Below are positions 17,434 to 38,055 of a DNA stretch of 64,000 nt, piece by piece (position 1 is the stretch's first letter; each line of letters begins with the position of its first letter). The stretch is taken from assembly GCF_054482595.1 (NCBI RefSeq), contig NZ_JBTHVH010000004.1; one strand, given 5' to 3'. The DNA is from a plasmid. The notes beneath the pieces were generated by a model. That model was not told the DNA's origin, did no database searches, and worked only from the letters and a program-made list of their open reading frames with translations. The translations under genes and the position numbers were made by a program.

Positions 17434-17455
17434 CACAGCAACAAAGGAAACAGGT

Positions 17456-17911: not shown

Positions 17912-17933
17912 TCCACATCCCTAAGGGTAAAAT

Positions 17934-18974: not shown

Positions 18975-19022
18975 TCCCCTTAAGTGTTAACCTGAACAAT
19001 TACTAATCGAAGAGGTTATTTT

Positions 19023-19601
19023 ATGAGTGTTTCTCTTTCCAAAGGCGGGAACGTCTCCCTGAGTAAAGCAGCTCCGTCAATGAAAAACGTCCTGGTGGGC
19101 CTTGGCTGGGATGCGCGTTCAACAGACGGTCAGGACTTTGACCTGGATGCTTCAGCGTTCCTGCTGGCCTCAAACGGCAAAGTGCGCGGCGATTCAGATT
19201 TCATCTTCTATAACAACCTGACGTCATCTGACGGTTCCGTAACCCATACCGGTGATAACCGTACCGGTGAAGGTGATGGTGATGATGAATCGCTGAAAAT
19301 TAAACTGGACGCCGTCCCGTCTGATGTTGACAAGATCATCTTCGTTGTCACTATCCATGATGCTCAGGCTCGTCGCCAGAGCTTTGGTCAGGTATCCGGT
19401 GCGTTTATTCGCCTGGTCAATGACGATAACCAGACTGAAGTCGCTCGCTACGATCTGACCGAAGATGCGTCCACTGAGACTGCCATGCTGTTCGGCGAGC
19501 TGTATCGCCACAATGGTGAGTGGAAATTCCGCGCAGTGGGCCAGGGTTATGCTGGTGGTCTGGCATCTGTATGTGCTCAGTACGGCATTAACGCGTCCTG
19601 A
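19023..19601 (+). CDS. terD: Tellurite resistance protein TerD
   Basis: '[15 protein letters not shown]'; 192 aa. Confidence 0.85.
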
Positions 19602-19668
19602 TCGAAAAGTAACTTTTCACCCGGGGCTGTTAATGCAGCCCTCATTCAACTGTTTGCAGGAGCTAAAA

Positions 19669-20244
19669 ATGGCAGTTTCTCTCGTAAAAGGCGGCAACGT
19701 ATCTCTGACCAAAGAAGCACCAACCATGAATATCGCTATGGTTGGCCTCGGCTGGGATGCCCGTGTAACTGACGGTCAGGCTTTTGACCTGGACGCTTCC
19801 GTGTTCGCAGTAGGCGAAGACGGTAAAGTGCTGTCAGATGCGCATTTCATTTTCTTCAATAACAAAACCAGCCCTGATGGCGCGGTAGAGCACCAGGGCG
19901 ACAACCGTACCGGTGAAGGCGACGGTGACGATGAGCAGGTCAAAATCGATCTGACCAAAGTCTCAGCAGATATCAAAAAACTGGTGTTTGCCGTTACCAT
20001 CTATGATGCAGAAGCGCGTAAACAAAACTTCGGCATGGTGAGCAACAGCTTCATACGCGTTTACAACAACGACAACGGCACGGAAATTGCCCGTTTCGAT
20101 CTGTCTGAAGATGCCTCAACCGAAACCGCTATGGTCTTCGGTGAACTGTATCGTCATGGCGCTGAGTGGAAGTTTAAAGCTGTCGGTCAGGGCTTTGCCG
20201 GTGGCCTGGCGGCTCTTGCCTCCCAGCACGGCGTTAACATCTAA
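19669..20244 (+). CDS. terE: Tellurite resistance protein TerE
   Basis: '[15 protein letters not shown]'; ATG at 19669; the track N-extension is rejected. Confidence 0.85.
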
Positions 20245-20261
20245 AACAACGCTGAATCATA

Positions 20262-20287
20262 CCCCGGCAATGCCGGGGTTTTTTTTG
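20262..20287 (+). terminator. Rho-independent terminator after terE
   Basis: 'CCCCGGCAATGCCGGGG' hairpin followed by T9. Confidence 0.65.
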
Positions 20288-20672
20288 GTTGCGATCCGCT
20301 TTCAGGAGGGAGTAGTAGAAAGGGGACTGGAAATTTCAGAAAGCAGGTCATGTTAATTCAGACCTGAGCCTTTTAAAGGCAGGAAACGGATTTATCTCTG
20401 GTTGCTGGTTAAAGCCGGTATTCCGTGCCTTTTATCAACAGAATGCCCCTCTGATATATGTTACTTTTGCGGTTTATGAAGGAACGGGATCTGGAACATA
20501 AGATACCCGGTCAATCAAAATTCCAGTTCAACAGGTATAGAAACTTCAGCGTGATGAAATATGGTGTCACACCATATATACGCCTCACCAGAAATCCAGC
20601 GTCCTGAACTAAGCCTGGGGAACATATATAAGCGCTGCGCTTTAAAAATAATCAAAAATCAGGAGAGTTAAT

Positions 20673-21914
20673 GTGAATCTACAATCCGGACAAAACATAC
20701 CGCTTCAGCAATCTGCGATCAGGCTGAATCTTCAGTACCCTGCCAAATCCGGCTTTAAAGGCGAACCCGATACCTGCCTCTTCCTGCTTAATGCTCAGGG
20801 AAAGGTAACCGGCGATTCTGACTTTATCTTTTATAATAATCTGTCTTCTCCTGAAGGGGCAGTAAAGCTCGTTACCGGTTCTCAGCAGTCCAGCATTGAG
20901 ATAGCACTGGATCGTGTTCCGGCGAACGTCAGTAAGATTGCGATCACCGTTGTCATTGATGGTGAAGATACTATCAGTGGGCTCAGTTTATTGAGCATTC
21001 AGGCTCCTGGTATCGCTGATTTTCAGGCTGAGACTCAGGGCCGCAGTGAGAAAGCAATCATCCTGGGTGAAGTATATCGGCACAATGGCGCCTGGAAGCT
21101 TCGTGCGCTCGGGCAGGGTTTCAACGGTGGTCTTGAGCCTCTGGCCATTAGCTTTGGCGTTGATGTCGCACAGCCAGCTCCGCAGCCAGCAAAGCCTGCT
21201 CGTATCAGTCTGGAAAAGAAACTTGAAACCAGATCTCCGCGCCTCGTAAGCCTCGCTAAAAAAGCCTCGGTCAGTCTCACTAAAAATAAACTGGACACCC
21301 TTGAGGCAGCGGTTGCATTTGTACTTGACGCATCCGGCTCAATGAGTGGCCAGTTCAGTAAGGGCAACGTTCAGTCTGTGCTGGACCGCATCGCCGTTCT
21401 TGCCGCCCAGTTCGACGACGACGGTGAAATGGATGTCTGGGGATTTGGAGAGAAGCACAAGAAGTATCCAAACGTCACACTGGACAACCTGGACACATAT
21501 ATTCAGTCCATTCGCGGGTCTGGAAAGCGTTCAGCCTGGGAGAACCTGCCGGGACTTGGTGGGACAAACAATGAGCCCCCTGTGATGGAAGAAATTGTCG
21601 ACTACTTTAAGGACTCGAAAATCCCGGTATATGTTGTATTTATTACCGATGGCGGGATCAGCAAGACCCGGGCGATTAAAGATGCAATCCGGCGTTCTGC
21701 CAACTACCCCATCTTCTGGAAGTTTGTCGGCCTGGGTGGTTCAAGCTACGGTATCCTCAAAAATCTGGATGACTTTACTGACCGCCGGGTTGATAACACC
21801 CACTTCTTTGCCATGGATGATTTCGGTTCGATCAGCGATGAAAAGTTATATGATAATTTACTGGAAGAATTCAGACCGTGGATCGATGAAACAAAAAGGT
21901 TAGGCATCCTGTAA
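20673..21914 (+). CDS. terF: TerF: TerD-like N-terminal domain fused to a C-terminal vWA domain
   Basis: GTG start at 20673 with AGGAGAG RBS; C-terminal half has MIDAS '[12 protein letters not shown]'. Confidence 0.8.
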
Positions 21915-21942
21915 TACGCACAGTTTTCGCATGGTTAAAGGA

Positions 21943-21970
21943 GCTCTACAGCAGCTTAATACTGTAGAGC
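21943..21970 (+). terminator. Hairpin (terminator candidate) after terF
   Basis: 9-bp arms 'GCTCTACAG'/'CTGTAGAGC' with a 10-nt loop; downstream T-tract is weak. Confidence 0.4.
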
Positions 21971-22004
21971 CTTTGTTCACTGGAAATCGTACAGGGAGGA
22001 GCAT

Positions 22005-22136
22005 ATGGACCGCATCAAGTACCTGAAATGGATAGCTGAAGAATCACCAACTGATGATGAAATCGACAACTACGATAGTATCATTAGTCGGGGCGCAGAA
22101 AGGGCCGAGAAGGTTCAGTTGTCTTTAAGACGTTAA
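22005..22136 (+). CDS. Small hypothetical protein (43 aa)
   Basis: ATG preceded by a strong GGGAGGAG RBS; not in the ORF track (<60 aa); translation 'MDRIKYLKWIAEESPTDDEIDNYDSIISRGAERAEKVQLSLRR'. Confidence 0.3.
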   Translation: MDRIKYLKWIAEESPTDDEIDNYDSIISRGAERAEKVQLSLRR

Positions 22137-22476
22137 TATACGGGAGTTTAAATGTTCGCAGAAATCAAAGATAATTATTCGTTAGGTGGATAAAGAAAGG
22201 TTGCCATTACCAGCTTTCGACGAGTCGAAAATAAAAACCTTATTTATAGTGACAGGGAGTATGAGCTGACGCTTGCCAATGGAACAATAATTAAAAATGT
22301 ACTTAGAAAAGAAGAGTGGGAACTGTTAGAAAGCAATTCAATTAAGGTTATATTATAACGAAAATATATTTACAGTTTTGGATAGGTTTCAAACGAGTCC
22401 GGACATTTGTACCTGAAGTATCTGACATTACAGTTAAGTGACGATTATGTCAGCACGTCTGTTGCTGGCAGCTTAG

Positions 22477-22758
22477 CTATCGGTCTAAAAGCTGATCCAT
22501 TAATAATTCTTCGTAAAGCCCAGAGGTATCGGGCTTTATTACAATATCCGTTATTTCGAAGCGTTCAAGTACAAATTGCAGATATTCCGGAGTAACGTAG
22601 TAGGGATCAGGTTCAGCCAGATTAGTATAGAGTGGGTCTTCTGCTGCATTAATGTCATAATCAATGCACATATGAAACCACTGCAAAGGTGGATCCCAGC
22701 CTAACATCACCTGAACAATTCCCTGATTGCTTTTCACCTCATACCAGTGCTGGCTCAT
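22477..22758 (-). CDS. Hypothetical protein (93 aa)
   Basis: ORF with no recognisable motif; last of three co-oriented minus-strand small genes. Confidence 0.4.
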   Translation of the reverse strand: MSQHWYEVKSNQGIVQVMLGWDPPLQWFHMCIDYDINAAEDPLYTNLAEPDPYYVTPEYLQFVLERFEITDIVIKPDTSGLYEELLMDQLLDR

Positions 22759-22807
22759 ACTTAGTCCTTAAGAAAATTTGTCATCGGAAAATAACACGAA
22801 GCCTGCA

Positions 22808-22999
22808 TCATCGAGGCGCATAACCTTCTTCCCTTAACGCCTGTTGTAATTTATCAACTGCGCTTTTCATTACCCAGGCTTCTTCGTCACTCACAGCACA
22901 ACCACGTAGATCGCTCCAGCTCAGACGTTTAACAAATTGAGCAAGGGCCATAGTTTCGTTCTCATCAAGCCGCAAACTCAGTGTCTCAATACCTTCCAC
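22808..22999 (-). CDS. Hypothetical small protein (63 aa)
   Basis: ORF in a minus-strand run of small genes; no family recognised. Confidence 0.35.
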   Translation of the reverse strand: MEGIETLSLRLDENETMALAQFVKRLSWSDLRGCAVSDEEAWVMKSAVDKLQQALREEGYAPR

Positions 23000-23090
23000 T
23001 ATCTAACCTCCCTTATAATGAAAAATGGCGCTTTACTTCTGACCAGATGCCGAAGCCTTGAATGCAGCCGGAACTGTCGTTGTTTCTACT

Positions 23091-23462
23091 TTACAGAAAT
23101 GGAATTAAAAAGTGGTGATGCTGGGCACGTTTCTTTTCCAGCCGGGGTTTAAGCCAGAGCTGAAACTCATTCAACTTCTCAGCAGCCAAAACCGCTTCAA
23201 CGGGGAAAACTTTATATTTACCCTGTTGCTGAGGTTCACCCAGCCATCGCCTGATGGCTCCGTCAGTCCATAAACGAGTCTCTTTTAGCCTAGTTACAGT
23301 GACCCATTTTCTGGACCATTCATCAAATTGTCGCTGGCGATCCCGATAACGTTGTTCTTCCTGCTGCCGAAGCCACTCGCGATCAACAGCAAATTTTCGG
23401 TATCCAACAAAGAGCCCTTGTACTTTGGCCATGTCATATTCCGGTTGCTTAGAGTTACTCAT
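23091..23462 (-). CDS. Hypothetical protein (123 aa, Arg/Gln-rich)
   Basis: ORF; first gene of the minus-strand small-gene run. Confidence 0.4.
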   Translation of the reverse strand: MSNSKQPEYDMAKVQGLFVGYRKFAVDREWLRQQEEQRYRDRQRQFDEWSRKWVTVTRLKETRLWTDGAIRRWLGEPQQQGKYKVFPVEAVLAAEKLNEFQLWLKPRLEKKRAQHHHFLIPFL

Positions 23463-23804
23463 TCAACCAAAACCTAAACGTCGATACAAACTCTGTTTCA
23501 TAACCAGGGTTTTATCCTTACCGCGACAGTAAGTAACAGGGGCTGCATAAACCGGTCATTTAGTCCGTTATGCAAAAATTATTGAGGATCCGGGCTGTTA
23601 AACTGTTCTTCCTCTTTCGCTTCCGGTGAAAAGGGGAGGTGTCACCCTGCGAGCCCGTGTAGTGAAAGGGATTCGTCGTAATACAGGCCAAAGGCTAACA
23701 TGACCGCAAAGGACGCCCGGGCGACCGGATACCTGCCGGGTTGTGCGATGTAAAATCCGGAAGCAGTGATAACACAAACAGGCCCCTACAGAGTAAGGAT
23801 TGTG

Positions 23805-24197
23805 ATGGACGATAAAGAGCAGTTTACGAATCTTGTGGCAAAGCATGCCTCCGGACTCACCGAAGAGCAGCTGGCCGGGTACGATGCCTGTTCCCTGGAT
23901 GGTGAATGCGTCACGCCTTCATACGAGGTTTTCCGGGGGTATCGTACCCGCCACACACTGGATGAATTTCTGGAGATGGCCATATCGCTGAATGCCATCC
24001 ACCCGGATGAATATTTAACGGATATGCTGCTGAAGCCTCATGAGGTGATCGGCGCTCTGGCCGATGAAGGCGACCAGCTGAACAACGCCACCCCGGTTTA
24101 TTTCTTTCCGGATACCGGCGTCTATGCAGCGGCCGTTAGTGAAACCCGGGTGCTCGATGCCTGGCTTTGCTGGCCATGCTACCCGGCGAACTGGTAA
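23805..24197 (+). CDS. Hypothetical protein (about 130 aa)
   Basis: ORF 23766..24197; internal Met (MDDKEQ) is the likely start; no family recognised. Confidence 0.35.
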   Translation: MDDKEQFTNLVAKHASGLTEEQLAGYDACSLDGECVTPSYEVFRGYRTRHTLDEFLEMAISLNAIHPDEYLTDMLLKPHEVIGALADEGDQLNNATPVYFFPDTGVYAAAVSETRVLDAWLCWPCYPANW

Positions 24198-24265
24198 CGC
24201 GGCCGTTGGAATTGCACCGGCCGGATACGAATTTAACCGACCCCGTGGCGGGAAGGCTATCAGAG

Positions 24266-24518
24266 TTGCATGTCCTCATCCCTCAAGCCCCCTGCCAGGC
24301 CCCAACGTGCTGTCAGGCTTCGCCTGATTCCCGATCTGCGCCGATACTTCAGCCGATAACTTTTTGTTTTCTTTTTATTTTCTTCCCATTTCCTCAAAAA
24401 TCGCGGGCGGCGTGGACAGGGCACCATTGCCGCATGTGGGGTCTTAATAAGGGCAGGGTGGTCAGTTTTGCTCGATGCCAGGGGTAGGCCCTCCCCTTCA
24501 TGGGATGAGGACATGCAA
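24266..24518. repeat. 17-bp perfect inverted-repeat pair bracketing about 219 bp
   Basis: 'TTGCATGTCCTCATCCC' at about 24266..24282 and its exact reverse complement at about 24502..24518. Confidence 0.6.
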
Positions 24519-24669
24519 GTAAGCTAACTATCTGAAATGACGAAGGTTAATTTGGTGAATGTCGCTTCATATTAATGTTGTGTCACTTATGATCGTATGT
24601 AGCTGGTTGCAAAGAGGAGCGATGAGACAATAAAGTTGTATCGCTAACAAGATTTATGCTGCCACATAG

Positions 24670-24771
24670 TAACAGCCTAAAAGTTGTACGCCCTATTTAA
24701 CAGCTTTTAGGCTGTTAATTTGATATTACAGCTTTTAGGGTGTATGTTTAGGAAACAGCCTGCAAGGTGTA
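24670..24771. promoter_or_regulatory. Array of four operator-like palindromes upstream of hipB
   Basis: Four related sites at about 24670, 24698, 24726 and 24753 (28-bp spacing), consensus ACAGC-N6-8-GTGT(A); the second is a perfect palindrome AACAGC-TTTTAG-GCTGTT. Confidence 0.55.
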
Positions 24772-24797
24772 TCAGAGGAAACTACTGAGGCCAGCTT

Positions 24798-25094
24798 ATG
24801 ATCAATAATGATTACCCGTTAAACACGCTCAACCAGCTGCGTCCCTTGCTCATTGGTTTTCGCAAGGCGAATGGCCTGACGCAAAAAGACCTGTCCGAAA
24901 GGTTAGGCGTCACTCAACAGACATACTCACGTCTGGAAGCCAACCCTGCCAGTGCGAGCATTGAACGGCTATTCAAGGTGTTTTCCATCCTGGGCGTAAA
25001 AATCAGCTTCTCCTCGGCAACCACCTCTTCAGAGAGGAAGCAGACGGAAGAAATGCTTAAATCAAACTCACCTGCACGACAGGAGGATTGGTAA
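24798..25094 (+). CDS. hipB: HipB-like antitoxin (XRE-family HTH)
   Basis: HTH 'LTQKDLSERLGVTQQTYSRLE'; directly upstream of the hipA-like gene. Confidence 0.8.
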   Translation: MINNDYPLNTLNQLRPLLIGFRKANGLTQKDLSERLGVTQQTYSRLEANPASASIERLFKVFSILGVKISFSSATTSSERKQTEEMLKSNSPARQEDW

Positions 25095-25098
25095 CGAT

Positions 25099-26424
25099 AT
25101 GAGCCGGAAACAGCAACGTCTGGTAATTTGGATGAACGGCATCAAAGTCGGGTACTGGGAAAAAAGCAAAGGGGTAGACAGCTTAGAATACCTTCCTGAA
25201 TGGGTTGCTGACGAACAGGGAAGGCCGCTGTCATTGTCCCTTCCTTTTACTCCCGGGAACCAGGTCTGGCGTGGAAATGTGGTACGTGACTATTTTGATA
25301 ATTTACTGCCGGACAGCGAAGGCATACGCAGACGTCTGGCAATGCGTTACAAGGCCGATAGCCTGGAGCCTTTTGATCTGCTGACGGAGCTGGGAAAAGA
25401 CTGCGTGGGCGCGATACAGCTGCTTCATGACGGAGATGAACCCACTGATTTATATTCCGTGAAGTATCACCCGCTTACTGAATCAGAAATTGCGGCAACT
25501 TTGCGTAATACCACGGAGACATTGCTACCGGGCAGGCCAGAAGATAACGACGACTTACGTTTATCTATTGCCGGTGCTCAGGAGAAAACAGCCCTACTGT
25601 GGCATGAAGATCGGTGGTGTATGCCGGAGGGTAATACACCAACGACGCATATATTCAAGCTACCGCTCGGACTTGTGGGGAACATGAAAGCCGACATGAG
25701 CTCGTCGGTTGAAAATGAATGGCTCTGCTCGGTACTTCTCGGCCAGTACGGGCTCCCCGTGGCAAGAACGCAGATTGCTCACTTTGAAGATCAGAAAGCG
25801 CTGGTGGTAGAACGTTTTGACCGAAAATGGTCAGGAGACGGACAATGGATCATTCGTTTACCCCAGGAGGATATGTGTCAGGCCCTGGGCGTTTCGCCAT
25901 TACGAAAATATCAGGCGGACGGCGGGCCAGGTATATCGGAAATTATGGAGGTTCTGAGTAATTCAGACCGTGCTGAGCGTGACAAAGCGCAGTTTTTTAT
26001 GACGCAGATAATTTTCTGGATGATGGCCGCAACAGATGGCCACGCTAAAAATTTCAGTATTTCTATTGGGCCACAGGGACGTTATCACCTTACACCAAAC
26101 TATGATGTGTTGTCGGCATGGCCGGTGATCGGTCATGGGAACAATCAGATATCCTGGCAGAAGTGCAAATTGGCGATGGCCGTACGTGGCAGTAGCAACT
26201 ATTACCAGATATATCGAATACAACGACGCCACTGGATCAGGCATGGTGAGATAACCGGCCTGAGTAAACAGCAGACAGAGGCGATGATAGAGGAAATCAT
26301 CGCCAGAACCCCAGGTGTCATTGAACGTGTTAGCGGGCTTCTTCCGGACCAGTTCCCCCAGCAGCTTGCGGAAAGTATTTTTGATGGAATGAGGCAGCAA
26401 TGCAGGCGCCTGGCTGAGAAATGA
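25099..26424 (+). CDS. hipA: HipA-family toxin kinase
   Basis: 441 aa; N-terminal region aligns by eye with E. coli HipA ('VGYW..YLPEWVA..RPLSLSLP..DNLLPDS..FDLL..G.DCVGA'); AGGAGGA RBS. Confidence 0.85.
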   Translation: MSRKQQRLVIWMNGIKVGYWEKSKGVDSLEYLPEWVADEQGRPLSLSLPFTPGNQVWRGNVVRDYFDNLLPDSEGIRRRLAMRYKADSLEPFDLLTELGKDCVGAIQLLHDGDEPTDLYSVKYHPLTESEIAATLRNTTETLLPGRPEDNDDLRLSIAGAQEKTALLWHEDRWCMPEGNTPTTHIFKLPLGLVGNMKADMSSSVENEWLCSVLLGQYGLPVARTQIAHFEDQKALVVERFDRKWSGDGQWIIRLPQEDMCQALGVSPLRKYQADGGPGISEIMEVLSNSDRAERDKAQFFMTQIIFWMMAATDGHAKNFSISIGPQGRYHLTPNYDVLSAWPVIGHGNNQISWQKCKLAMAVRGSSNYYQIYRIQRRHWIRHGEITGLSKQQTEAMIEEIIARTPGVIERVSGLLPDQFPQQLAESIFDGMRQQCRRLAEK

Positions 26425-26484
26425 CAGCCGCAATTTATAGTGTGCATGTTTTCAGAATAGCTGATGTAAGCGTGAGGATTCAGT

Positions 26485-26691
26485 ATGACTGAAGAACAAA
26501 AAAGAATAGAGCGGGCTATTGAGTTGGCTTGTCGTTACGGCGGAACCGATGAAATGCATCATCTGCAATGGGTCGTGGATCAGATGGTAAGAGAACTTGC
26601 TGGAGAACGTTATGCACAGATTGTAGCTGATGCCACCAGCGGAGAAGATGGGCCTGATACTTACAAATGGAGTGTTGGGATCGCGCCTTAA
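26485..26691 (+). CDS. Hypothetical small protein (68 aa)
   Basis: ORF only. Confidence 0.3.
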   Translation: MTEEQKRIERAIELACRYGGTDEMHHLQWVVDQMVRELAGERYAQIVADATSGEDGPDTYKWSVGIAP

Positions 26692-26792
26692 CAGCTGTCG
26701 GTCTGGGGGTGAAAACGTATTCTTCATTCAGCGAATTCCCAGGCTTCACATTAAGACTAAAGCGGCGGCCGCAGTAACGTAAGAGAAAATAA

Positions 26793-27203
26793 ATGGCTAT
26801 TTTAGCAATCATTGCAGTTATCGCCCTGGGTGGGTACGCCTACGGATTTATTAAAACCCGTGAGCTGAGCGCTTTGCGTAAAGAAATGAAACTATACGTG
26901 GATCGCATGGAAGCGGCGGAGCTGGACTTACACGCAATCAGAAGTGTAGCGGAGCACCGGTTGCACGGTGCAGGTAAACAGTTTGCCGACCTTTACAGCC
27001 GTATCGACGGTGCAACTGTGACGCTGACACCCGAAGATCAGCTGTTACTGGCAACGATGCCATTTAATATTCAGGATGTAGAAGACATCGTAAACGAGCG
27101 CGGTCCAAAGACAATTAGCGGCCGTCCATTCTGGGAAGTTGAGCCAGGCCCGCATGATTATGAATATGGCCCGCAATATCCGTATTTCCCAGACCAGCGC
27201 TAG
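26793..27203 (+). CDS. Hypothetical membrane-anchored protein (136 aa)
   Basis: ORF with an N-terminal hydrophobic segment. Confidence 0.4.
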   Translation: MAILAIIAVIALGGYAYGFIKTRELSALRKEMKLYVDRMEAAELDLHAIRSVAEHRLHGAGKQFADLYSRIDGATVTLTPEDQLLLATMPFNIQDVEDIVNERGPKTISGRPFWEVEPGPHDYEYGPQYPYFPDQR

Positions 27204-27215
27204 GAAGAGATCAAG

Positions 27216-27461
27216 ATGAGAGAGCCAAGACCACGCCATACCTTGCAGGTCATTCGTGTACCTTCTCTGGAGGTTCAGGACCTGGGGCTGACCAGCTTTG
27301 ATAGCTGGCTTGACGAGCACGGGTATGACAAAACGAATGCCAGAAATAACCGTACCATCTGGGCGAGAGAAGGCGGATGGCATCTGAAACGTTGCAGAAA
27401 TCTTGAAACTGGCACGGACGATTTCTGGTTTATCGCTTTCGATGGTAAAGGCGGGAAGATT
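27216..27461 (+). pseudogene. Hypothetical gene truncated at its 3' end by IS26
   Basis: The reading frame runs directly into the IS26 terminal inverted repeat at 27462. Confidence 0.4.
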
Positions 27462-28281
27462 GGCACTGTTGCAAAGTTAGCGATGAGGCAGCCTTTTGTC
27501 TTATTCAAAGGCCTTACATTTCAAAAACTCTGCTTACCAGGCGCATTTCGCCCAGGGGATCACCATAATAAAATGCTGAGGCCTGGCCTTTGCGTAGTGC
27601 ACGCATCACCTCAATACCTTTGATGGTGGCGTAAGCCGTCTTCATGGATTTAAATCCCAGCGTGGCGCCGATTATCCGTTTCAGTTTGCCATGATCGCAT
27701 TCAATCACGTTGTTCCGGTACTTAATCTGTCGGTGTTCAACGTCAGACGGGCACCGGCCTTCGCGTTTGAGCAGAGCAAGCGCGCGACCATAGGCGGGCG
27801 CTTTATCCGTGTTGATGAATCGCGGGATCTGCCACTTCTTCACGTTGTTGAGGATTTTACCCAGAAACCGGTATGCAGCTTTGCTGTTACGACGGGAGGA
27901 GAGATAAAAATCGACAGTGCGGCCCCGGCTGTCGACGGCCCGGTACAGATACGCCCAGCGGCCATTGACCTTCACGTAGGTTTCATCCATGTGCCACGGG
28001 CAAAGATCGGAAGGGTTACGCCAGTACCAGCGCAGCCGTTTTTCCATTTCAGGCGCATAACGCTGAACCCAGCGGTAAATCGTGGAGTGATCGACATTCA
28101 CTCCGCGTTCAGCCAGCATCTCCTGCAGCTCACGGTAACTGATGCCGTATTTGCAGTACCAGCGTACGGCCCACAGAATGATGTCACGCTGAAAATGCCG
28201 GCCTTTGAATGGGTTCATGTGCAGCTCCATCAGCAAAAGGGGATGATAAGTTTATCACCACCGACTATTTGCAACAGTGCC
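27462..28281 (-). mobile_element. IS26 copy 1 (820 bp)
   Basis: 14-bp terminal inverted repeats GGCACTGTTGCAAA at both ends; internal transposase identical in all five copies; no target-site duplication. Confidence 0.95.
27514..28218 (-). CDS. tnpA: IS26 transposase (234 aa)
   Basis: 'MNPFKGRHFQRDIILWAVRWYCKYGISYRELQEM...'; the track ORF includes a 6-codon upstream extension. Confidence 0.95.
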   Translation of the reverse strand: MNPFKGRHFQRDIILWAVRWYCKYGISYRELQEMLAERGVNVDHSTIYRWVQRYAPEMEKRLRWYWRNPSDLCPWHMDETYVKVNGRWAYLYRAVDSRGRTVDFYLSSRRNSKAAYRFLGKILNNVKKWQIPRFINTDKAPAYGRALALLKREGRCPSDVEHRQIKYRNNVIECDHGKLKRIIGATLGFKSMKTAYATIKGIEVMRALRKGQASAFYYGDPLGEMRLVSRVFEM

Positions 28282-28304
28282 GTTGATCGTGCTATGATCG
28301 ACTG

Positions 28305-29108
28305 ATGTCATCAGCGGTGGAGTGCAATGTCGTGCAATACGAATGGCGAAAAGCCGAGCTCATCGGTCAGCTTCTCAACCTTGGGGTTACCCCCGGCGGT
28401 GTGCTGCTGGTCCACAGCTCCTTCCGTAGCGTCCGGCCCCTCGAAGATGGGCCACTTGGACTGATCGAGGCCCTGCGTGCTGCGCTGGGTCCGGGAGGGA
28501 CGCTCGTCATGCCCTCGTGGTCAGGTCTGGACGACGAGCCGTTCGATCCTGCCACGTCGCCCGTTACACCGGACCTTGGAGTTGTCTCTGACACATTCTG
28601 GCGCCTGCCAAATGTAAAGCGCAGCGCCCATCCATTTGCCTTTGCGGCAGCGGGGCCACAGGCAGAGCAGATCATCTCTGATCCATTGCCCCTGCCACCT
28701 CACTCGCCTGCAAGCCCGGTCGCCCGTGTCCATGAACTCGATGGGCAGGTACTTCTCCTCGGCGTGGGACACGATGCCAACACGACGCTGCATCTTGCCG
28801 AGTTGATGGCAAAGGTTCCCTATGGGGTGCCGAGACACTGCACCATTCTTCAGGATGGCAAGTTGGTACGCGTCGATTATCTCGAGAATGACCACTGCTG
28901 TGAGCGCTTTGCCTTGGCGGACAGGTGGCTCAAGGAGAAGAGCCTTCAGAAGGAAGGTCCAGTCGGTCATGCCTTTGCTCGGTTGATCCGCTCCCGCGAC
29001 ATTGTGGCGACAGCCCTGGGTCAACTGGGCCGAGATCCGTTGATCTTCCTGCATCCGCCAGAGGCGGGATGCGAAGAATGCGATGCCGCTCGCCAGTCGA
29101 TTGGCTGA
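28305..29108 (+). CDS. aac(3)-IV: Aminoglycoside 3-N-acetyltransferase AAC(3)-IV (apramycin/gentamicin resistance)
   Basis: Translation matches the recalled AAC(3)-IV sequence ('YEWRKAELIGQLLNLGVTPGGVLLVHSSFRSV...'); starts 23 bp after the IS26 end. Confidence 0.85.
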   Translation: MSSAVECNVVQYEWRKAELIGQLLNLGVTPGGVLLVHSSFRSVRPLEDGPLGLIEALRAALGPGGTLVMPSWSGLDDEPFDPATSPVTPDLGVVSDTFWRLPNVKRSAHPFAFAAAGPQAEQIISDPLPLPPHSPASPVARVHELDGQVLLLGVGHDANTTLHLAELMAKVPYGVPRHCTILQDGKLVRVDYLENDHCCERFALADRWLKEKSLQKEGPVGHAFARLIRSRDIVATALGQLGRDPLIFLHPPEAGCEECDAARQSIG

Positions 29109-29336
29109 GCTCATGAGCGGAGAACGAGATGACGTTGGAGGGGCAAGGTCGCGCTGATTGCTGGGGCAACACGTGGAGCGGATCGGGGATTGTCTTTCTT
29201 CAGCTCGCTGATGATATGCTGACGCTCAATGCCGTTTGGCCTCCGACTAACGAAAATCCCGCATTTGGACGGCTGATCCGATTGGCACGGCGGACGGCGA
29301 ATGGCGGAGCAGACGCTCGTCCGGGGGCAATGAGAT

Positions 29337-30362
29337 ATGAAAAAGCCTGAACTCACCGCGACGTCTGTCGAGAAGTTTCTGATCGAAAAGTTCGACAGCG
29401 TCTCCGACCTGATGCAGCTCTCGGAGGGCGAAGAATCTCGTGCTTTCAGCTTCGATGTAGGAGGGCGTGGATATGTCCTGCGGGTAAATAGCTGCGCCGA
29501 TGGTTTCTACAAAGATCGTTATGTTTATCGGCACTTTGCATCGGCCGCGCTCCCGATTCCGGAAGTGCTTGACATTGGGGAATTCAGCGAGAGCCTGACC
29601 TATTGCATCTCCCGCCGTGCACAGGGTGTCACGTTGCAAGACCTGCCTGAAACCGAACTGCCCGCTGTTCTGCAGCCGGTCGCGGAGGCCATGGATGCGA
29701 TCGCTGCGGCCGATCTTAGCCAGACGAGCGGGTTCGGCCCATTCGGACCGCAAGGAATCGGTCAATACACTACATGGCGTGATTTCATATGCGCGATTGC
29801 TGATCCCCATGTGTATCACTGGCAAACTGTGATGGACGACACCGTCAGTGCGTCCGTCGCGCAGGCTCTCGATGAGCTGATGCTTTGGGCCGAGGACTGC
29901 CCCGAAGTCCGGCACCTCGTGCACGCGGATTTCGGCTCCAACAATGTCCTGACGGACAATGGCCGCATAACAGCGGTCATTGACTGGAGCGAGGCGATGT
30001 TCGGGGATTCCCAATACGAGGTCGCCAACATCTTCTTCTGGAGGCCGTGGTTGGCTTGTATGGAGCAGCAGACGCGCTACTTCGAGCGGAGGCATCCGGA
30101 GCTTGCAGGATCGCCGCGGCTCCGGGCGTATATGCTCCGCATTGGTCTTGACCAACTCTATCAGAGCTTGGTTGACGGCAATTTCGATGATGCAGCTTGG
30201 GCGCAGGGTCGATGCGACGCAATCGTCCGATCCGGAGCCGGGACTGTCGGGCGTACACAAATCGCCCGCAGAAGCGCGGCCGTCTGGACCGATGGCTGTG
30301 TAGAAGTACTCGCCGATAGTGGAAACCGACGCCCCAGCACTCGTCCGAGGGCAAAGGAATAG
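29337..30362 (+). CDS. hph: Hygromycin B phosphotransferase APH(4)-Ia
   Basis: 'MKKPELTATSVEKFLIEKFDSVSDLMQLSEGEESRAFSFDVGGRGYVLRVN...' matches recalled Hph. Confidence 0.9.
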   Translation: MKKPELTATSVEKFLIEKFDSVSDLMQLSEGEESRAFSFDVGGRGYVLRVNSCADGFYKDRYVYRHFASAALPIPEVLDIGEFSESLTYCISRRAQGVTLQDLPETELPAVLQPVAEAMDAIAAADLSQTSGFGPFGPQGIGQYTTWRDFICAIADPHVYHWQTVMDDTVSASVAQALDELMLWAEDCPEVRHLVHADFGSNNVLTDNGRITAVIDWSEAMFGDSQYEVANIFFWRPWLACMEQQTRYFERRHPELAGSPRLRAYMLRIGLDQLYQSLVDGNFDDAAWAQGRCDAIVRSGAGTVGRTQIARRSAAVWTDGCVEVLADSGNRRPSTRPRAKE

Positions 30363-30367
30363 AGTAG

Positions 30368-30729
30368 ATGCCGACCGAACAAGAGCTGATTTCGAGAACG
30401 CCTCAGCCAGCAACTCGCGCGAGCCTAGCAAGGCAAATGCGAGAGAACGGCCTTACGCTTGGTGGCACAGTTCTCGTCCACAGTTCGCTAAGCTCGCTCG
30501 GCTGGGTCGCGGGAGGGCCGGTCGCAGTGATTCAGGCCCTTCTGGATTGTGTTGGTCCCCAGGGCACGATTGTCATGCCCACGCACTCGGGTGATCTGAC
30601 TGATCCCGCAGATTGGAGATCGCCGCCCGTGCCTGCCGATTGGGTGCAGATCTTGCGCAACGAGATGCCGGCATACGATCCGCAAACCACACCAACTCGG
30701 AACATGGGTGCAGTGGCTGAATTGTTCCG
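30368..30729 (+). pseudogene. 3'-truncated AAC(3)-family acetyltransferase gene
   Basis: First 120 codons resemble the AAC(3) N-terminus ('GGTVLVHSSLSSLG...GTIVMPTHSGDLTDP'); the frame is cut by the IS6-family element at about 30730. Confidence 0.5.
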
Positions 30730-31619
30730 GGCGTGTCGCAAACACTTTTGGAGGCAGCTATCACCCAGCCAAGGCCGGTATTTTCATGCTTTGTTAACCT
30801 TTTGCAGTCCGAAGAGGCGCGCAAGCAAATCATTCTGGTCATTGACGGTCCAGCCGCCTGAAAAGCCAAAGCCCTTCCGCAGCCACAGCATCGCCTCGAA
30901 ACCCGCGATGGTTCGCCGCGCCGTGTTAAAGGATTGGAAACCGCCGATCTTCGGCATGTTCTTCTTCACCCGGAAATGGTCGCTCTCAATCCCCTGCTGG
31001 AGATGTTTGGTCACATAATGCACGGGATCGGGATGGAGAAGCCCATCATCAACCGACGTTTTGATCGTTGACGGGAAGGTGTTGGCCCCGTCCGTCCCAA
31101 TCCTGTTCGGCGACAACAAGGGTTCATCTTTAAGCATCTTTCGGAAGAACCGCTTGGCAGCGTCGAGATCGCGCTTAGCGGTCAGCAGGAAATCCACCGG
31201 ATTGCCATGCTTATCGATGGCTCGGTACAGATAGCGCCATTTGCCGCGGATCTTGACATAGGTCTCATCAATCCGGACCGAGCCGCAATGGGGTCGACGA
31301 AACTGCCGCAGCCGTTTCTCGATGACAGGTGCATAAGCCAATACCCAGCGGTTGATCGTGCTATGATCGACCTCGAAGCCCCGCTCGCGAAACATCTCTT
31401 CCAAGTCACGATAGCTGAGCGGGTAGCGCAAGTACCAGGCAACCGCCTGTACAATCAGCCAGGCCTCGAAATGCCTGCCCTTGAAATCATCCTTCGACTG
31501 GCGCTTCAGCTTTTCGGCAATGGTATTCAAAATCATCGGCTCGCTCCGCAATATCAGGAGCGGCAACTTCTCTCCCCATGGTCAACATCGAGTTAACCTG
31601 AAGAATTTGCGACAAGGCC
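30730..31619 (-). mobile_element. IS6-family insertion sequence, distinct from IS26 (about 890 bp)
   Basis: Imperfect terminal repeats GGCGTGTCGCAAA (left) and GGCCTTGTCGCAAA (right, reverse complement) flanking a 260-aa IS6-type transposase; exact IS name not determined. Confidence 0.7.
30784..31566 (-). CDS. IS6-family transposase (260 aa)
   Basis: Same domain layout as IS26 Tnp ('FKGRHFEAWLIVQAVAWYLRYPLSYRDLEEM...') but divergent in sequence. Confidence 0.8.
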   Translation of the reverse strand: MPLLILRSEPMILNTIAEKLKRQSKDDFKGRHFEAWLIVQAVAWYLRYPLSYRDLEEMFRERGFEVDHSTINRWVLAYAPVIEKRLRQFRRPHCGSVRIDETYVKIRGKWRYLYRAIDKHGNPVDFLLTAKRDLDAAKRFFRKMLKDEPLLSPNRIGTDGANTFPSTIKTSVDDGLLHPDPVHYVTKHLQQGIESDHFRVKKNMPKIGGFQSFNTARRTIAGFEAMLWLRKGFGFSGGWTVNDQNDLLARLFGLQKVNKA

Positions 31620-33121
31620 ATGCGTTCCGCTCCGGAGATGTCTGGCTTACTAGGTCCCGGCGCTATGGCGATCTGAAACACGCACTCGTTCCGGCACAAT
31701 CCATCGCGGAAGGCGGTCGTCTCGCTGTGCCATTGCGGCCGGAGGAATGGCTGGCAGACCGGCAAGCTCGCCTCGACATGCGGTTGCGCGAGCTTGGCCG
31801 TGCCGCTCGCGCAGGCACGATCCCGGGCGGGTCGATTGAAAACGGCGTTCTGCATATCGAGAAACTCGAAGCCGCCGCGCCGACAGGCGCCGAAGATCTG
31901 GTGCTCGATCTCTACAAGCAGATCCCGCCCACGCGCATCACCGATCTCCTGCTGGAGGTGGATGCGGCGACCGGCTTCACCGAAGCGTTCACCCATCTGC
32001 GCACAGGAGCACCCTGCGCTGACCGGATCGGGCTAATGAACGTTATCTTGGCGGAAGGGATCAACCTCGGCTTGCGCAAAATGGCGGATGCGACAAACAC
32101 CCACACCTTCTGGGAATTGATCCGCATTGGACGGTGGCATGTCGAGGGCGAAGCCTATGACCGGGCGCTGGCCATGGTGGTCGAGGCACAGGCAGCGTTA
32201 CCCATGGCCCGGTTCTGGGGCATGGGCACGTCGGCTTCGAGCGACGGACAGTTCTTCGTCGCTACAGAGCAAGGTGAGGCCATGAACCTGGTCAACGCGA
32301 AATATGGCAATACCCCGGGCCTGAAAGCCTATAGCCACGTCTCCGACCAATATGCGCCGTTCGCAACCCAGGTGATTCCTGCAACGGCAAGCGAAGCGCC
32401 TTACATCCTCGATGGCCTGCTGATGAACGATGCTGGACGCCATATCCGCGAGCAGTTCACCGACACGGGCGGCTTCACCGATCACGTCTTTGCCGCATGT
32501 GCCATTCTCGGCTACCGGTTCGCTCCGCGCATCCGCGACCTGCCATCCAAACGGCTCTACGCGTTCAATCCGTCGGCCGCCCCGGCGCACCTGCGAGCGT
32601 TGATCGGCGGAAAGGTCAACCAAGCCATGATCGAGCGCAATTGGCCCGACATCCTGCGCATCGCCGCCACCATTGCTGCCGGGACCGTCGCGCCAAGCCA
32701 GATTCTGCGGAAACTCGCCTCCTATCCGCGGCAGAACGAGCTCGCGACAGCCCTGCGGGAAGTCGGTCGCGTCGAGCGCACCCTGTTCATGATCGACTGG
32801 ATTCTGGATGCCGAACTCCAACGGCGTGCCCAGATCGGGCTCAACAAAGGCGAAGCTCATCATGCGCTGAAGCGGGCAATCAGCTTCCACCGCCGCGGTG
32901 AAATCCGCGACCGTTCCGCCGAAGGCCAGCATTACCGCATCGCCGGCATGAATCTGCTCGCCGCCATCATCATCTTCTGGAACACCATGAAGCTCGGCGA
33001 GGTCGTTGCAAACCAGAAACGCGATGGAAAGCTGCTATCGCCCGATCTCTTGGCCCATGTTTCGCCGCTCGGATGGGAACACATCAATCTCACCGGAGAA
33101 TATCGCTGGCCAAAGCCTTAG
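31620..33121 (+). pseudogene. tnpA: 5'-truncated Tn3-family transposase gene (Tn5393-type tnpA, C-terminal about 500 codons)
   Basis: Homologous by eye to the C-terminal half of the 995-aa TnpA at 50492..53479 ('...SPLGWEHINLTGEYRW'); the track ORF start lies inside the IS6 element so the 5' end is missing. Confidence 0.7.
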
Positions 33122-33153
33122 CGTAGGATTCCGCCCCCTCCCGCAAACGACCC
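33073..33153. repeat. Tn5393-type 81-bp terminal inverted repeat (tnpA end)
   Basis: Reverse complement reads 'GGGGTCGTTTGCGGGAGGGGGCGGAATCCTACGCTAAGGCTTTGGCCAGCGATATTCTCCGG...', matching the recalled Tn5393 IR; overlaps the tnpA 3' end. Confidence 0.6.
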
Positions 33154-33154
33154 C

Positions 33155-34066
33155 GTGATGACCCTGCAGGCATCCCCTGAGACCCGGTTAATGCGCGCCG
33201 AGGTGCAGCGGCATTATCCGCACATCTGGCAGGAGCTGGAGGGGCTGGCGCAGGGACTGGAGGCCACTGTTGATCAGGTCTTTGCCTGGAACTGCCGTGG
33301 CGATCTGGTGCGCTCAACGTCGGATGGCTGTACGACGGTGGCCGGGGTAAACGCCGCAGGCGAGCGGATTATCGCGCATAATGAAGACGGTTTTCCTCAG
33401 TTACGGGATGAATGCTTGCTGGCTACCATTACTCCGAGTCGCGGTCTGAGCTTTACGAGTTTTGCCTATCCGGGGTCGATTTGCGGCCACACCTTTGCGG
33501 TAAATGAAAAAGGTATCGTTAACACGGTGAATAACATCCGTGCAGTGTATCGTCCGCAGGGATTACCGCGTCAGATCCTGGCTCGCGCCTCGCTGAATGC
33601 GAACACCCTCGACGAGGCCATCACTATACTTACCGGCCAGCCGCGATCCGGGGCGTTTCACCATACGCTCGGGCAGCTGGGCGATGCGCGGCTGTTCAGC
33701 GTTGAGGCCACCGGTCAAGGCTGTTCCGTTCTACCCCTGACGACGGTAACCGGGCATGCCAACCATCTGGTGCATGCGGCACTGGCTGGCGTTGAGCAGA
33801 TCGTTACCGACAGTTCAGCGTCGCGGCAGTTACGCCTCGTGCAGTGGCGGGAAACGCAACCTCCGTTTGACGCCGCGGCGGCAAAAACCATTCTCTCAGA
33901 TACCCATGACGCAGAACTGCCAATTTACCGGCTGGCTGCCGACGATCCGGATGAGGAGAACACCCTCGCCACGGCAGTTTTCACCCTCGATGCCAACCAC
34001 GTCAGGTGGCAAATTTTCGACATTAACCGCGACGATGCTAAATTTCATGGAGAAGTGCGTGGGTGA
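33155..34066 (+). CDS. Hypothetical Ntn-hydrolase / peptidase C45-like protein (303 aa)
   Basis: ORF with 'DGCTT' candidate nucleophile context; family assignment is tentative. Confidence 0.45.
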   Translation: MMTLQASPETRLMRAEVQRHYPHIWQELEGLAQGLEATVDQVFAWNCRGDLVRSTSDGCTTVAGVNAAGERIIAHNEDGFPQLRDECLLATITPSRGLSFTSFAYPGSICGHTFAVNEKGIVNTVNNIRAVYRPQGLPRQILARASLNANTLDEAITILTGQPRSGAFHHTLGQLGDARLFSVEATGQGCSVLPLTTVTGHANHLVHAALAGVEQIVTDSSASRQLRLVQWRETQPPFDAAAAKTILSDTHDAELPIYRLAADDPDEENTLATAVFTLDANHVRWQIFDINRDDAKFHGEVRG

Positions 34067-34219
34067 AATAGCCGGTCGTCAGTCATAAAGGGCAGGGGAG
34101 TACCGTTGGCCCGGCGTTCGATAGTACCGTCCGGATACTGCCAGATATCGGCGTCCAGGGAGATGTCCTGAAGCGCGGTGTCCGGAATTTCAGGTTTGTG
34201 TCTCTACAAAGACTAACTA

Positions 34220-35035
34220 TCAGAAAAACTCATCGAGCATCAAATGAAACTGCAATTTATTCATATCAGGATTATCAATACCATATTTTTGAAAAAGCCG
34301 TTTCTGTAATGAAGGAGAAAATTCACCGAGGCAGTTCCATAGGATGGCAAGATCCTGGTATCGGTCTGCGATTCCGACTCGTCCAACATCAATACAACCT
34401 ATTAATTTCCCCTCGTCAAAAATAAGGTTATCAAGTGAGAAATCACCATGAGTGACGACTGAATCCGGTGAGAATGGCAAAAGCTTATGCATTTCTTTCC
34501 AGACTTGTTCAACAGGCCAGCCATTACGCTCGTCATCAAAATCACTCGCATCAACCAAACCGTTATTCATTCGTGATTGCGCCTGAGCGAGACGAAATAC
34601 GCGATCGCTGTTAAAAGGACAATTACTAACAGGAATCGAATGCAACCGGCGCAGGAACGCTGCCAGCGCATCAACAATATTTTCACCTGAATCAGGATAT
34701 TCTTCTAATACCTGGAATGCTGTTTTCCCGGGGAGCGCAGTGGTGAGTAACCATGCATCATCAGGAGTACGGATAAAATGCTTGATGGTCGGAAGAGGCA
34801 TAAATGCCGTCAGCCAGTTTAGTCTGACCATCTCATCTGTAACATCATTGGCAACGCTACCTTTGCCATGTTTCAGAAACAACTCTGGCGCATCGGGCTT
34901 CCCATACAATCGATAGATTGTCGCACCTGATTGCCCGACATTATCGCGAGCCCATTTATACCCATATAAATCAGCATCCAGGTTGGAATTTAATCGCGGC
35001 CTCGAGCAAGACGTTTCCCGTTGAATATGGCTCAT
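34220..35035 (-). CDS. aph(3')-Ia: Aminoglycoside 3'-phosphotransferase APH(3')-Ia (kanamycin/neomycin resistance)
   Basis: 'MSHIQRETSCSRPRLNSNLDADLYGYKWARDNVGQSGATIYRLYGKPDAPELFLKHGKG...' matches recalled Tn903 AphA1. Confidence 0.9.
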   Translation of the reverse strand: MSHIQRETSCSRPRLNSNLDADLYGYKWARDNVGQSGATIYRLYGKPDAPELFLKHGKGSVANDVTDEMVRLNWLTAFMPLPTIKHFIRTPDDAWLLTTALPGKTAFQVLEEYPDSGENIVDALAAFLRRLHSIPVSNCPFNSDRVFRLAQAQSRMNNGLVDASDFDDERNGWPVEQVWKEMHKLLPFSPDSVVTHGDFSLDNLIFDEGKLIGCIDVGRVGIADRYQDLAILWNCLGEFSPSLQKRLFQKYGIDNPDMNKLQFHLMLDEFF

Positions 35036-35139
35036 AACACCCCTTGTATTACTGTTTATGTAAGCAGACAGTTTTATTGTTCATGATGATATATTTTTAT
35101 CTTGTGCAATGTAACATCAGAGATTTTGAGACACAACGT

Positions 35140-35345: not shown

Positions 35346-35370
35346 GGGGATAGGAGAAGTCGCTTGATAT

Positions 35371-38000: not shown

Positions 38001-38055
38001 TGGAGCACCTCAAAAACACCATCATACACTAAATCAGTAAGTTGGCAGCATCACC

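What the first reader, a model, noticed from the sequence alone, without database searches (positions are those of the whole stretch)
26485..27461. Small genes downstream of hipA, the last cut by IS26
The 27216..27461 frame runs directly into the IS26 inverted repeat, marking the exact left boundary of the resistance mosaic and showing that IS26 inserted into pre-existing cargo.
Basis: seen in the sequence. Interest (0 to 1): 0.25.

Follow-up and report, generated by a model that had tools for sequence, protein, structure and literature searches.

The report
IS26-truncated HNH gene on IncHI2 plasmid
The last small gene after hipA is the first 82 codons of a 271-codon plasmid backbone gene for an HNH-type nuclease, cut off by an IS26 element that also removed about 9 kb of neighbouring backbone; this is an ordinary scar, already annotated as a pseudogene, shared by about 50 sequenced plasmids.

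Summary
Three small ORFs follow hipBA (26485..26691, 26793..27203, 27216..). The third runs straight into the 14-bp inverted repeat of an 820-bp IS26 at 27462.

An intact homolog exists, so the ORF is not spurious. It is the 816-nt, 271-aa IncHI2 backbone gene WP_001572439.1, annotated as an HNH endonuclease signature motif protein. It is uninterrupted at this site in about 1,049 PLSDB plasmids. The window keeps only nt 1-246. The HNH_2 domain (aa 176-222) is lost.

It is not a simple insertion:
- This IS26 has no 8-bp target duplication.
- The 3' 570 nt are absent from the window.
- Collinear backbone resumes only at 53500. In a reference plasmid the two edges lie 9,376 bp apart.
- That 9.4-kb segment is absent from an entire complete plasmid with the same junction.

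So a 26-kb IS26/Tn3-family resistance mosaic (27462..53499) replaced about 9.4 kb of backbone. The lost segment includes the rest of this gene, a paralogous HNH gene and an H-NS-family gene. The cause is most likely an IS26-mediated adjacent deletion.

The identical junction occurs in at least 51 PLSDB plasmids and 34 complete E. coli genomes. PGAP already marks it as a pseudogene missing its C-terminus. It is ordinary and already known, useful only as a lineage marker.

The parts
24798..25094 (+). hipB-like HTH antitoxin/regulator (98 aa).
   Evidence: Pfam HTH_3, E 4.5e-15. Annotated WP_024136327.1 in reference plasmids.
25099..26424 (+). hipA family toxin kinase (441 aa).
   Evidence: Pfam HipA_C, E 3.6e-51, and Couple_hipA, E 3.7e-21. 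Annotated WP_000088046.1.
26485..26691 (+). 68-aa backbone gene of unknown function (WP_000134171.1).
   Evidence: 100% identical in many IncHI2 plasmids. Homologs of 60-88% identity, mostly exactly 68 aa long, occur in Yersinia, Serratia, Leclercia, Citrobacter and Enterobacter. No Pfam, NCBIfam or PADLOC hit. One weak match to phrog_23179, E 6e-4.
26793..27203 (+). 136-aa backbone gene of unknown function (WP_000985911.1) with a hydrophobic N-terminus.
   Evidence: Homologs of about 136 aa at 62-89% identity occur in Kosakonia, Enterobacter and Klebsiella aerogenes, plus a 44%-identical homolog of 122 aa in Salmonella. No family hit.
27216..27461 (+). 5' remnant (codons 1-82 of 271) of the IncHI2 backbone gene for an HNH_2-domain protein (WP_001572439.1). 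It is a pseudogene. The frame reads on into IS26 to 27623.
   Evidence: Identical to nt 1-246 of the intact 816-nt gene. The HNH_2 domain at aa 176-222 lies in the missing part. PGAP annotates the same remnant in pEC6622-1 as 'incomplete; missing C-terminus'.
27462..28281 (-). IS26 copy 1 (820 bp, tnp26 on the minus strand, about 27514..28218). It forms the left end of the resistance mosaic and has no target-site duplication.
   Evidence: Exact 14-bp inverted repeats at both ends. Left 8 bp are GGAAGATT and right 8 bp are GTTGATCG; GGAAGATT is unique in the window. Annotated as an IS26 family transposase in matching plasmids.
27462..53499 (.). 26-kb resistance mosaic that replaces about 9.4 kb of IncHI2 backbone. 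It holds five IS26 copies, aac(3)-IV and aph(4)-Ia directly right of IS26 copy 1, and further modules.
   Evidence: Backbone homology ends at 27461 and resumes at 53500. The two edges are 9,376 bp apart in pM160133_p1. AAC(3)-IV and APH(4)-Ia were identified by NCBIfam.
48989..49808 (+). IS26 copy 5, the only copy with an 8-bp direct target duplication (CTTCTGGT). This marks a simple insertion.
50450..53479 (+). Tn3-family transposase gene. The transposon end near 53499 forms the right edge of the mosaic. No partner inverted repeat is found within 49809..53520.
   Evidence: NCBIfam transpos_Tn3, 1128 bits. No terminal inverted-repeat pair found. Backbone resumes at 53500.
53500..53687 (-). 5' remnant (63 of 222 codons) of a second backbone gene (WP_000490638.1), truncated at the right edge of the mosaic.
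   Evidence: The translation matches the first 63 aa of the intact gene and then diverges.

Best explanation
The window is IncHI2 plasmid backbone. Downstream of hipBA lie two conserved small genes of unknown function, then the gene for a 271-aa protein. That protein has a conserved N-terminal region and a C-terminal HNH_2 nuclease domain.

In the lineage this window comes from, a resistance region grew next to this stretch, anchored on its right side by a Tn3-family transposon end. An IS26 belonging to that region then produced an adjacent deletion. There are two possible routes:
- One-step intramolecular replicative transposition of IS26 into the target GGAAGATT inside the HNH gene.
- An IS26 insertion at that site, followed by recombination with another directly oriented IS26.

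Either route fuses the IS26 end directly to nt 246 of the gene. Either route removes about 9.4 kb: the 3' 570 nt of the gene, its HNH paralog, an H-NS-family gene, several hypothetical genes and the other end of the transposon. Neither leaves a target-site duplication.

What remains at 27216..27461 is a dead 5' fragment lacking the nuclease domain. The junction has since been inherited vertically, while the mosaic interior was reshuffled by IS26.

Shown directly: the truncation point, the missing domain, the lack of a duplication, the missing 9.4 kb and the shared junction. Inferred: which of the two IS26 routes made the deletion, and the order of events.
For: - Intact gene: the same DNA is 100% identical in IncHI2A plasmids, where the third ORF is an 816-nt CDS, WP_001572439.1.
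- Lost domain: the HNH_2 domain lies at aa 176-222, beyond the break.
- Frequency: 1,049 plasmid records are uninterrupted across the breakpoint. 51 records carry the exact remnant/IS26 junction, as do 35 records in 34 complete E. coli genomes.
- No duplication: IS26 copy 1 has no TSD, whereas copy 5 has one.
- Missing 3' part: it is absent from the window.
- Replacement: collinear backbone resumes at 53500, with 9,376 bp of reference backbone missing.
- Deletion, not relocation: the missing segment has no BLAST hit anywhere in the complete 197-kb pSTEC636_1, which has the same left junction and right boundary, while the flanking controls do hit.
- No reciprocal junction: IS26 + GGAAGATT + nt 247 onward was not found in PLSDB in either IS26 orientation.
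- Shared boundaries: the plasmids listed as sharing the right boundary largely overlap those listed as sharing the left junction.
- Variable interior: the mosaic interior differs among them.
- Literature: IS26 copies without TSDs and IS26-driven remodelling, including deletion, are described for IncHI2 resistance regions (PMC9019673, PMC8407110). Strain GD33 of the latter paper carries this junction (NZ_CP076648.1).
Against: - The window shows only 64 kb of its own replicon. That the 9.4 kb is gone from this particular plasmid is inferred from one fully examined relative and from the place counts (1,107 places in 1,102 records).
- The one-step and two-step IS26 routes leave identical products and cannot be told apart here.
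- The reference used for the 9,376-bp figure (pM160133_p1) itself carries a helicase-containing insert and a truncated second HNH gene, so the ancestral deleted length may differ.
- PLSDB searches were capped at 5,000 records. Full-length junction matches should still rank first.
Confidence: 0.9

Rival explanations
1. Simple insertion. IS26, or an IS26-bounded composite transposon carrying the whole mosaic, transposed into the intact gene. The 3' half of the gene then sits on the other side of the mosaic behind an 8-bp duplication. This is essentially the first reader's picture.
For: The gene is cut precisely at the IS26 inverted repeat. IS26 copy 5 in the same window shows that simple insertions with a TSD do occur here.
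Against: - IS26 copy 1 has no TSD, and GGAAGATT occurs once in the window.
- The 3' 570 nt are not in the window.
- The far edge of the mosaic is a Tn3-family end abutting a different backbone gene, 9.4 kb away in the reference.
- The missing segment is absent from a complete relative.
- No reciprocal junction exists in PLSDB.
Confidence: 0.04
2. The 27216..27461 frame is a spurious ORF, and the IS26 simply lies in non-coding DNA.
For: The 82-aa fragment alone has no Pfam hit.
Against: - It is identical to the start of a 271-aa CDS with a significant HNH_2 domain.
- Full-length homologs exist at about 80% identity, and a 42-44% identical paralog conserves the N-terminal region, with many invariant residues in aa 1-120.
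- PGAP annotates the remnant as a partial CDS.
Confidence: 0.01
3. The remnant is a functional neo-gene. The 135-aa chimeric ORF (82 native residues plus 53 IS26-encoded residues, 27216..27623) would be expressed and retained because it does something, for example interfering with the paralogous HNH protein.
For: - The start codon, upstream signals and tight spacing to the upstream gene are intact.
- The junction persists unchanged in at least 51 plasmids.
- A predicted protein from the same junction is in public collections (P0019).
Against: - The break falls inside the conserved N-terminal region. Invariant residues continue at Q88, D90, Y91, R92 and beyond.
- The paralog it might interact with is itself deleted.
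- Persistence of the junction is explained by recent common descent (100% identity).
- The same gene is independently disrupted elsewhere by an IS21-family element, which argues that it is dispensable.
Confidence: 0.03

Closest known systems
IS26-mediated adjacent deletion at the edge of a multiresistance region (IS6 family; intramolecular replicative transposition or IS26-IS26 recombination)
   Same: - An 820-bp IS26 with exact 14-bp inverted repeats abuts a truncated backbone gene.
- There is no 8-bp duplication.
- Neighbouring DNA is lost.
- Several identical IS26 copies sit in both orientations, and the interior varies between relatives.
- The same behaviour is described for IncHI2 plasmids in PMC9019673 and PMC8407110.
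   Different: Nothing substantive. The particular target (nt 246 of the HNH_2 gene) is not singled out in the papers I read, but it is present in their sequenced plasmids and in RefSeq annotation.
IncHI2 backbone gene WP_001572439.1 (HNH_2 / PF13391 'HNH endonuclease signature motif containing protein')
   Same: The window's nt 27216-27461 are identical to its first 246 nt.
   Different: Only 82 of 271 codons remain and the HNH_2 domain is absent, so the window copy is a pseudogene and not a family member in any functional sense.
HNH_2-type putative restriction endonucleases (variable N-terminal domain plus C-terminal HNH)
   Same: The C-terminal 130 aa of the intact protein match HNH_2, PADLOC HNH models and PHROG families. 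Distant homologs are labelled 'putative restriction endonuclease' by their sources.
   Different: The N-terminal 120 aa are shared only with close plasmid relatives and the IncHI2 paralog. No solved structure matches by sequence. No nuclease or restriction activity has been tested.

Membership tests
IS26 (IS6 family) | 820-bp element bounded by perfect 14-bp terminal inverted repeats GGCACTGTTGCAAA. | tested here: met
   27462..28281 is 820 bp with exact inverted repeats at both ends. Five identical copies are present, with 0 matches expected by chance.
IS26 (IS6 family) | Single transposase gene tnp26 (234 aa). | tested here: met
   A minus-strand ORF lies within 27514..28236. The copy is 100% identical to IS26 copies annotated WP_001067855.1 in reference plasmids.
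IS26 (IS6 family) | 8-bp target-site duplication after simple insertion or cointegrate resolution. | tested here: not met
   Copy 1 has GGAAGATT on the left and GTTGATCG on the right. Only copy 5 has a TSD. Absence is expected after an IS26-mediated deletion or IS26-IS26 recombination, so it bears on the history, not on the identity of the element.
HNH_2 endonuclease (PF13391) | Presence of the HNH_2 domain above Pfam's gathering score. | tested here: not met
   The window remnant (82 aa) has 0 families. The intact homolog scores 30.6 bits against a cut-off of 21, at aa 176-222. The window copy is therefore a remnant of a member, not a member.
HNH_2 endonuclease (PF13391) | Metal-dependent nuclease activity. 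| not testable with these tools
There is no solved homolog by sequence, and the AF2 model is too poor to inspect.
HipBA type II toxin-antitoxin module (upstream context) | HTH antitoxin gene immediately followed by a HipA kinase with Couple_hipA and HipA_C domains. | tested here: met
   The two genes are 4 nt apart.
IncHI2 plasmid backbone | Near-identical, collinear DNA in plasmids typed IncHI2A. | tested here: met
   1,161 plasmid records match 26440..27461, and 690 of them are at least 99% identical. The records inspected are typed IncHI2A with MOBH and MPF_F. Window 1138..27461 and 53500..64000 are collinear with them.

The most novel reading that the evidence does not exclude
This IncHI2 sub-lineage spread among poultry, pigs, fish and people after losing a 9.4-kb backbone block holding two paralogous HNH_2 nucleases and an H-NS-family gene. 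That loss, or the leftover 135-aa chimeric ORF, might itself change plasmid behaviour, for example fitness cost, silencing of plasmid genes, or restriction of incoming DNA. On this reading the scar would not be neutral.
Probability: 0.04. Interest if true: 0.3.

Novelty: already known. Interest (0 to 1): 0.07.

Why it matters
It matters little beyond bookkeeping. The junction (gene nt 246 fused to the IS26 end at 27461/27462), together with the right-hand edge at 53499/53500, defines the resistance region precisely. It also serves as a practical marker for one sub-lineage of IncHI2 multiresistance plasmids: about 50 sequenced examples from E. coli, Salmonella, Klebsiella and E. fergusonii, from animal, food and human sources. 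It shows that the backbone block carrying two HNH-type genes and an H-NS-family gene is dispensable for plasmid persistence.

Tried and rejected
- **Reciprocal junction.** I searched PLSDB with two chimeric queries (each IS26 end + GGAAGATT + the next 142 nt of the gene). There was no true match. The single 100%-covered record (pFG92-1-MCR1) is a different arrangement, with IS26 just upstream of an intact gene.
- **Structure of the intact protein.** AlphaFold2 on a 9-sequence alignment gave mean pLDDT 48.6 and pTM 0.31. This is too poor, so no fold search was run.
- **Solved structures.** A sequence search of the PDB gave no hit at E up to 1.
- **The 68-aa and 136-aa proteins.** Pfam, NCBIfam and PADLOC gave nothing. 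PHROGs gave one weak hit of unknown function for the 68-aa protein.
- **Synteny test.** In a diverged (79% identity) HNH homolog context, the 68-aa and 136-aa genes are not there, so the three genes are not a conserved trio. The HNH gene instead travels with its paralog and an H-NS gene.
- **Promoter and terminator scan of 24300..27700.** Counts were no higher than in shuffled sequence, so this was uninformative.
- **Partner inverted repeat for the Tn3-family element in 49809..53520.** None was found.
- **Literature.** Papers describe IS26 remodelling of IncHI2 resistance regions in general. I found none that names this specific junction.

Full report
**Observation**

The sequence and ORF map show hipB (24798..25094) and hipA (25099..26424). 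Pfam confirms both: HTH_3 for hipB, and Couple_hipA plus HipA_C for hipA. Three ORFs follow on the same strand:
- 26485..26691 (68 aa)
- 26793..27203 (136 aa)
- one starting at 27216, 12 nt after the previous stop

The 14-bp IS26 terminal repeat GGCACTGTTGCAAA begins at 27462 and its inverted partner ends at 28281, giving 820 bp. The window holds ten such repeats, that is five IS26 copies, where none is expected by chance. All five copies are identical. It then continues in frame through IS26 sequence to a stop at 27623, giving a 135-aa chimeric ORF.

**What the truncated frame is**

Megablast of 26440..27461 finds 1,161 plasmid records. Of these, 690 are at least 99% identical, and most are large conjugative plasmids of Escherichia, Salmonella, Enterobacter and Klebsiella. 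The records I inspected are typed IncHI2A.

In those plasmids the third ORF is an 816-nt CDS, WP_001572439.1, named 'HNH endonuclease signature motif containing protein'. It is preceded by the same 68-aa (WP_000134171.1) and 136-aa (WP_000985911.1) genes and by hipBA. The window keeps nt 1-246, which is codons 1-82. The reference continues TACCCGCTG... where the window has GGCACTGTTGCAAA.

The only recognisable domain, HNH_2 (PF13391, 30.6 bits against a cut-off of 21), lies at aa 176-222, in the missing part. The break also falls inside a conserved N-terminal region. That region is shared with homologs at about 80% identity and with a 42-44% identical paralog, and invariant residues continue past residue 82.

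The remnant is a pseudogene. PGAP already annotates it as such in pEC6622-1: 'incomplete; missing C-terminus'.

**The two upstream small genes**

Neither has a Pfam, NCBIfam or PADLOC match. The 68-aa protein has one weak PHROG hit of unknown function. Both have diverged homologs of similar length in other Enterobacterales:
- The 68-aa protein has homologs at 60-88% identity, most exactly 68 aa long, in Yersinia, Serratia, Leclercia and Citrobacter.
- The 136-aa protein has homologs of about 136 aa at 62-89% identity in Kosakonia, Enterobacter and Klebsiella aerogenes, plus a 44%-identical homolog of 122 aa in Salmonella.

I therefore take them as real genes of unknown function. They are not a fixed trio with the HNH gene. 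A 79%-identical HNH homolog in another E. coli contig lacks them and instead sits with an HNH paralog and an H-NS gene, the same partnership seen in the IncHI2 backbone.

**Insertion or deletion?**

- IS26 copy 1 has no 8-bp target duplication. Its left flank is GGAAGATT, its right flank is GTTGATCG, and GGAAGATT is unique in the window. Copy 5 (48989..49808) is flanked by CTTCTGGT on both sides.
- The 3' 570 nt of the gene are nowhere in the window.
- Against pM160133_p1, backbone homology runs to 27461 and resumes, collinear, at 53500. The two edges are 9,376 bp apart in that reference.
- The right edge is the end of a Tn3-family transposon (transposase 50450..53479). No partner inverted repeat was found for it.
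- That transposon end truncates a second backbone gene after 63 of 222 codons (53687..53500, minus strand).
- The missing 9.4 kb in the reference holds the rest of the HNH gene, several hypothetical genes, the HNH paralog and an H-NS-family gene.
- I fetched the whole of pSTEC636_1 (197,376 bp), which has the same left junction and right boundary. The 9.4-kb segment has no BLAST hit there, and no H-NS-like hit by tblastn, while flanking controls hit at over 99.7%.
- The breakpoint-spanning search gave 1,107 places in 1,102 records. So very few plasmids hold the two halves of the gene at separate sites.
- Chimeric queries for the reciprocal junction found none in either IS26 orientation.

A 26-kb mosaic (27462..53499) has therefore replaced about 9.4 kb of backbone. 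The segment was deleted, not moved.

**Mechanism**

What is known of IS26 offers two routes, and I cannot separate them here:
- Intramolecular replicative transposition of an IS26 already in the resistance region into the target GGAAGATT. This deletes everything between the two sites in one step.
- An ordinary IS26 insertion at that site, followed by recombination with another directly oriented IS26.

Both routes fuse the IS26 end to nt 246 with no duplication. This rests on established knowledge of IS26, and the papers read here describe such remodelling in IncHI2 plasmids (PMC8407110; PMC9019673 notes IS26 copies without TSDs). The absence of any reciprocal junction in about 72,000 plasmids mildly favours the one-step route.

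**Distribution**

The exact junction is present in 51 PLSDB records and in 35 records from 34 of 5,426 complete E. coli genomes. By contrast, 1,049 records are uninterrupted at the site. The plasmids listed as sharing the right boundary largely overlap those listed as sharing the left junction. What lies just inside IS26 copy 1 differs among them:
- aac(3)-IV/aph(4)-Ia in this window
- a recombinase-family gene, a DUF3330 gene and a class 1 integron (intI1) in others

This pattern fits one ancestral deletion followed by IS26 reshuffling of the interior. Sources are mainly chickens, ducks, pigs, fish, meat and people. The few country fields I read say China.

The gene has also been hit independently:
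- by an IS21-family element at about codon 73 in a Salmonella contig (P0010/L009)
- by an IS26 placed just upstream of the intact gene in pFG92-1-MCR1

These events suggest the gene is dispensable.

**What the lost gene may have done**

The C-terminal 130 aa match HNH_2, PADLOC 'HNH' models and PHROG families of unknown function. Distant homologs are labelled 'putative restriction endonuclease' by their sources. The N-terminal region has no detectable relatives outside close plasmid homologs. There is no PDB match by sequence, and the AF2 model was unusable (pLDDT 48.6). A nuclease with a specialised N-terminal recognition domain is a reasonable guess, but it is untested.

**Verdict**

It is wrong in treating the event as a simple insertion into cargo. 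The structure is an IS26-associated deletion of IncHI2 backbone. It is already represented and annotated in public records and is of low interest except as a lineage marker.

Noticed in passing
window 24665-24771: Just upstream of hipB there are four copies of an ~18-21-nt motif (ACAGCYTNNAAGNNTGT-like), arranged as direct and inverted repeats. These are probably HipB operator sites. They differ from the E. coli K-12 hipBA operator consensus as I recall it, which I did not check.
   Followed up: partly
window 48989-49808: IS26 copy 5 is the only one of the five with an 8-bp target duplication (CTTCTGGT). It is a simple insertion into the remnant of the Tn3-family transposon that forms the right end of the mosaic.
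   Followed up: yes
window 53500-53687 (minus strand): A second backbone gene (WP_000490638.1, 222 aa) is truncated after codon 63 by the Tn3-family transposon end. Both genes flanking the mosaic read into it and lose their 3' ends.
   Followed up: yes
L004 38294-47669 (NZ_CP022165.1 100293-109668); absent from window: The backbone block lost in this lineage includes an H-NS-family gene (WP_001287392.1) and a second HNH_2 paralog (42% identical; 285 aa in pQnrB4_020042). No H-NS-like gene is detectable in the window or in the complete relative pSTEC636_1.
   Followed up: partly
L009 2184-4645 (Salmonella contig JAILUE010000024.1): An IS21-family element (istA/istB) independently disrupts the same HNH gene about 25 nt upstream of the IS26 breakpoint, leaving a 5'-truncated copy (P0010).
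   Followed up: partly
L005 3394-4931 (pFG92-1-MCR1, NZ_CP142678.1): Another IS26 event in the same neighbourhood. IS26 lies immediately upstream of an intact copy of the HNH gene, and the hipBA side is replaced by chrA and tet(M) modules.
   Followed up: no
window ~21739-21746; L001 1-302, L004 22077: Relative to the window, pM160133_p1 has the hipBA-to-methyltransferase backbone block inverted between IS26 copies. One IS26 abuts the position equivalent to window ~21740 inside a VWA-domain gene. This is an IS26-mediated inversion in that plasmid, not in the window.
   Followed up: no
window 28305-30362: aac(3)-IV (apramycin/gentamicin acetyltransferase) and aph(4)-Ia (hygromycin phosphotransferase) lie immediately right of IS26 copy 1. 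In other plasmids with the same junction this module sits behind a different IS26.
   Followed up: partly
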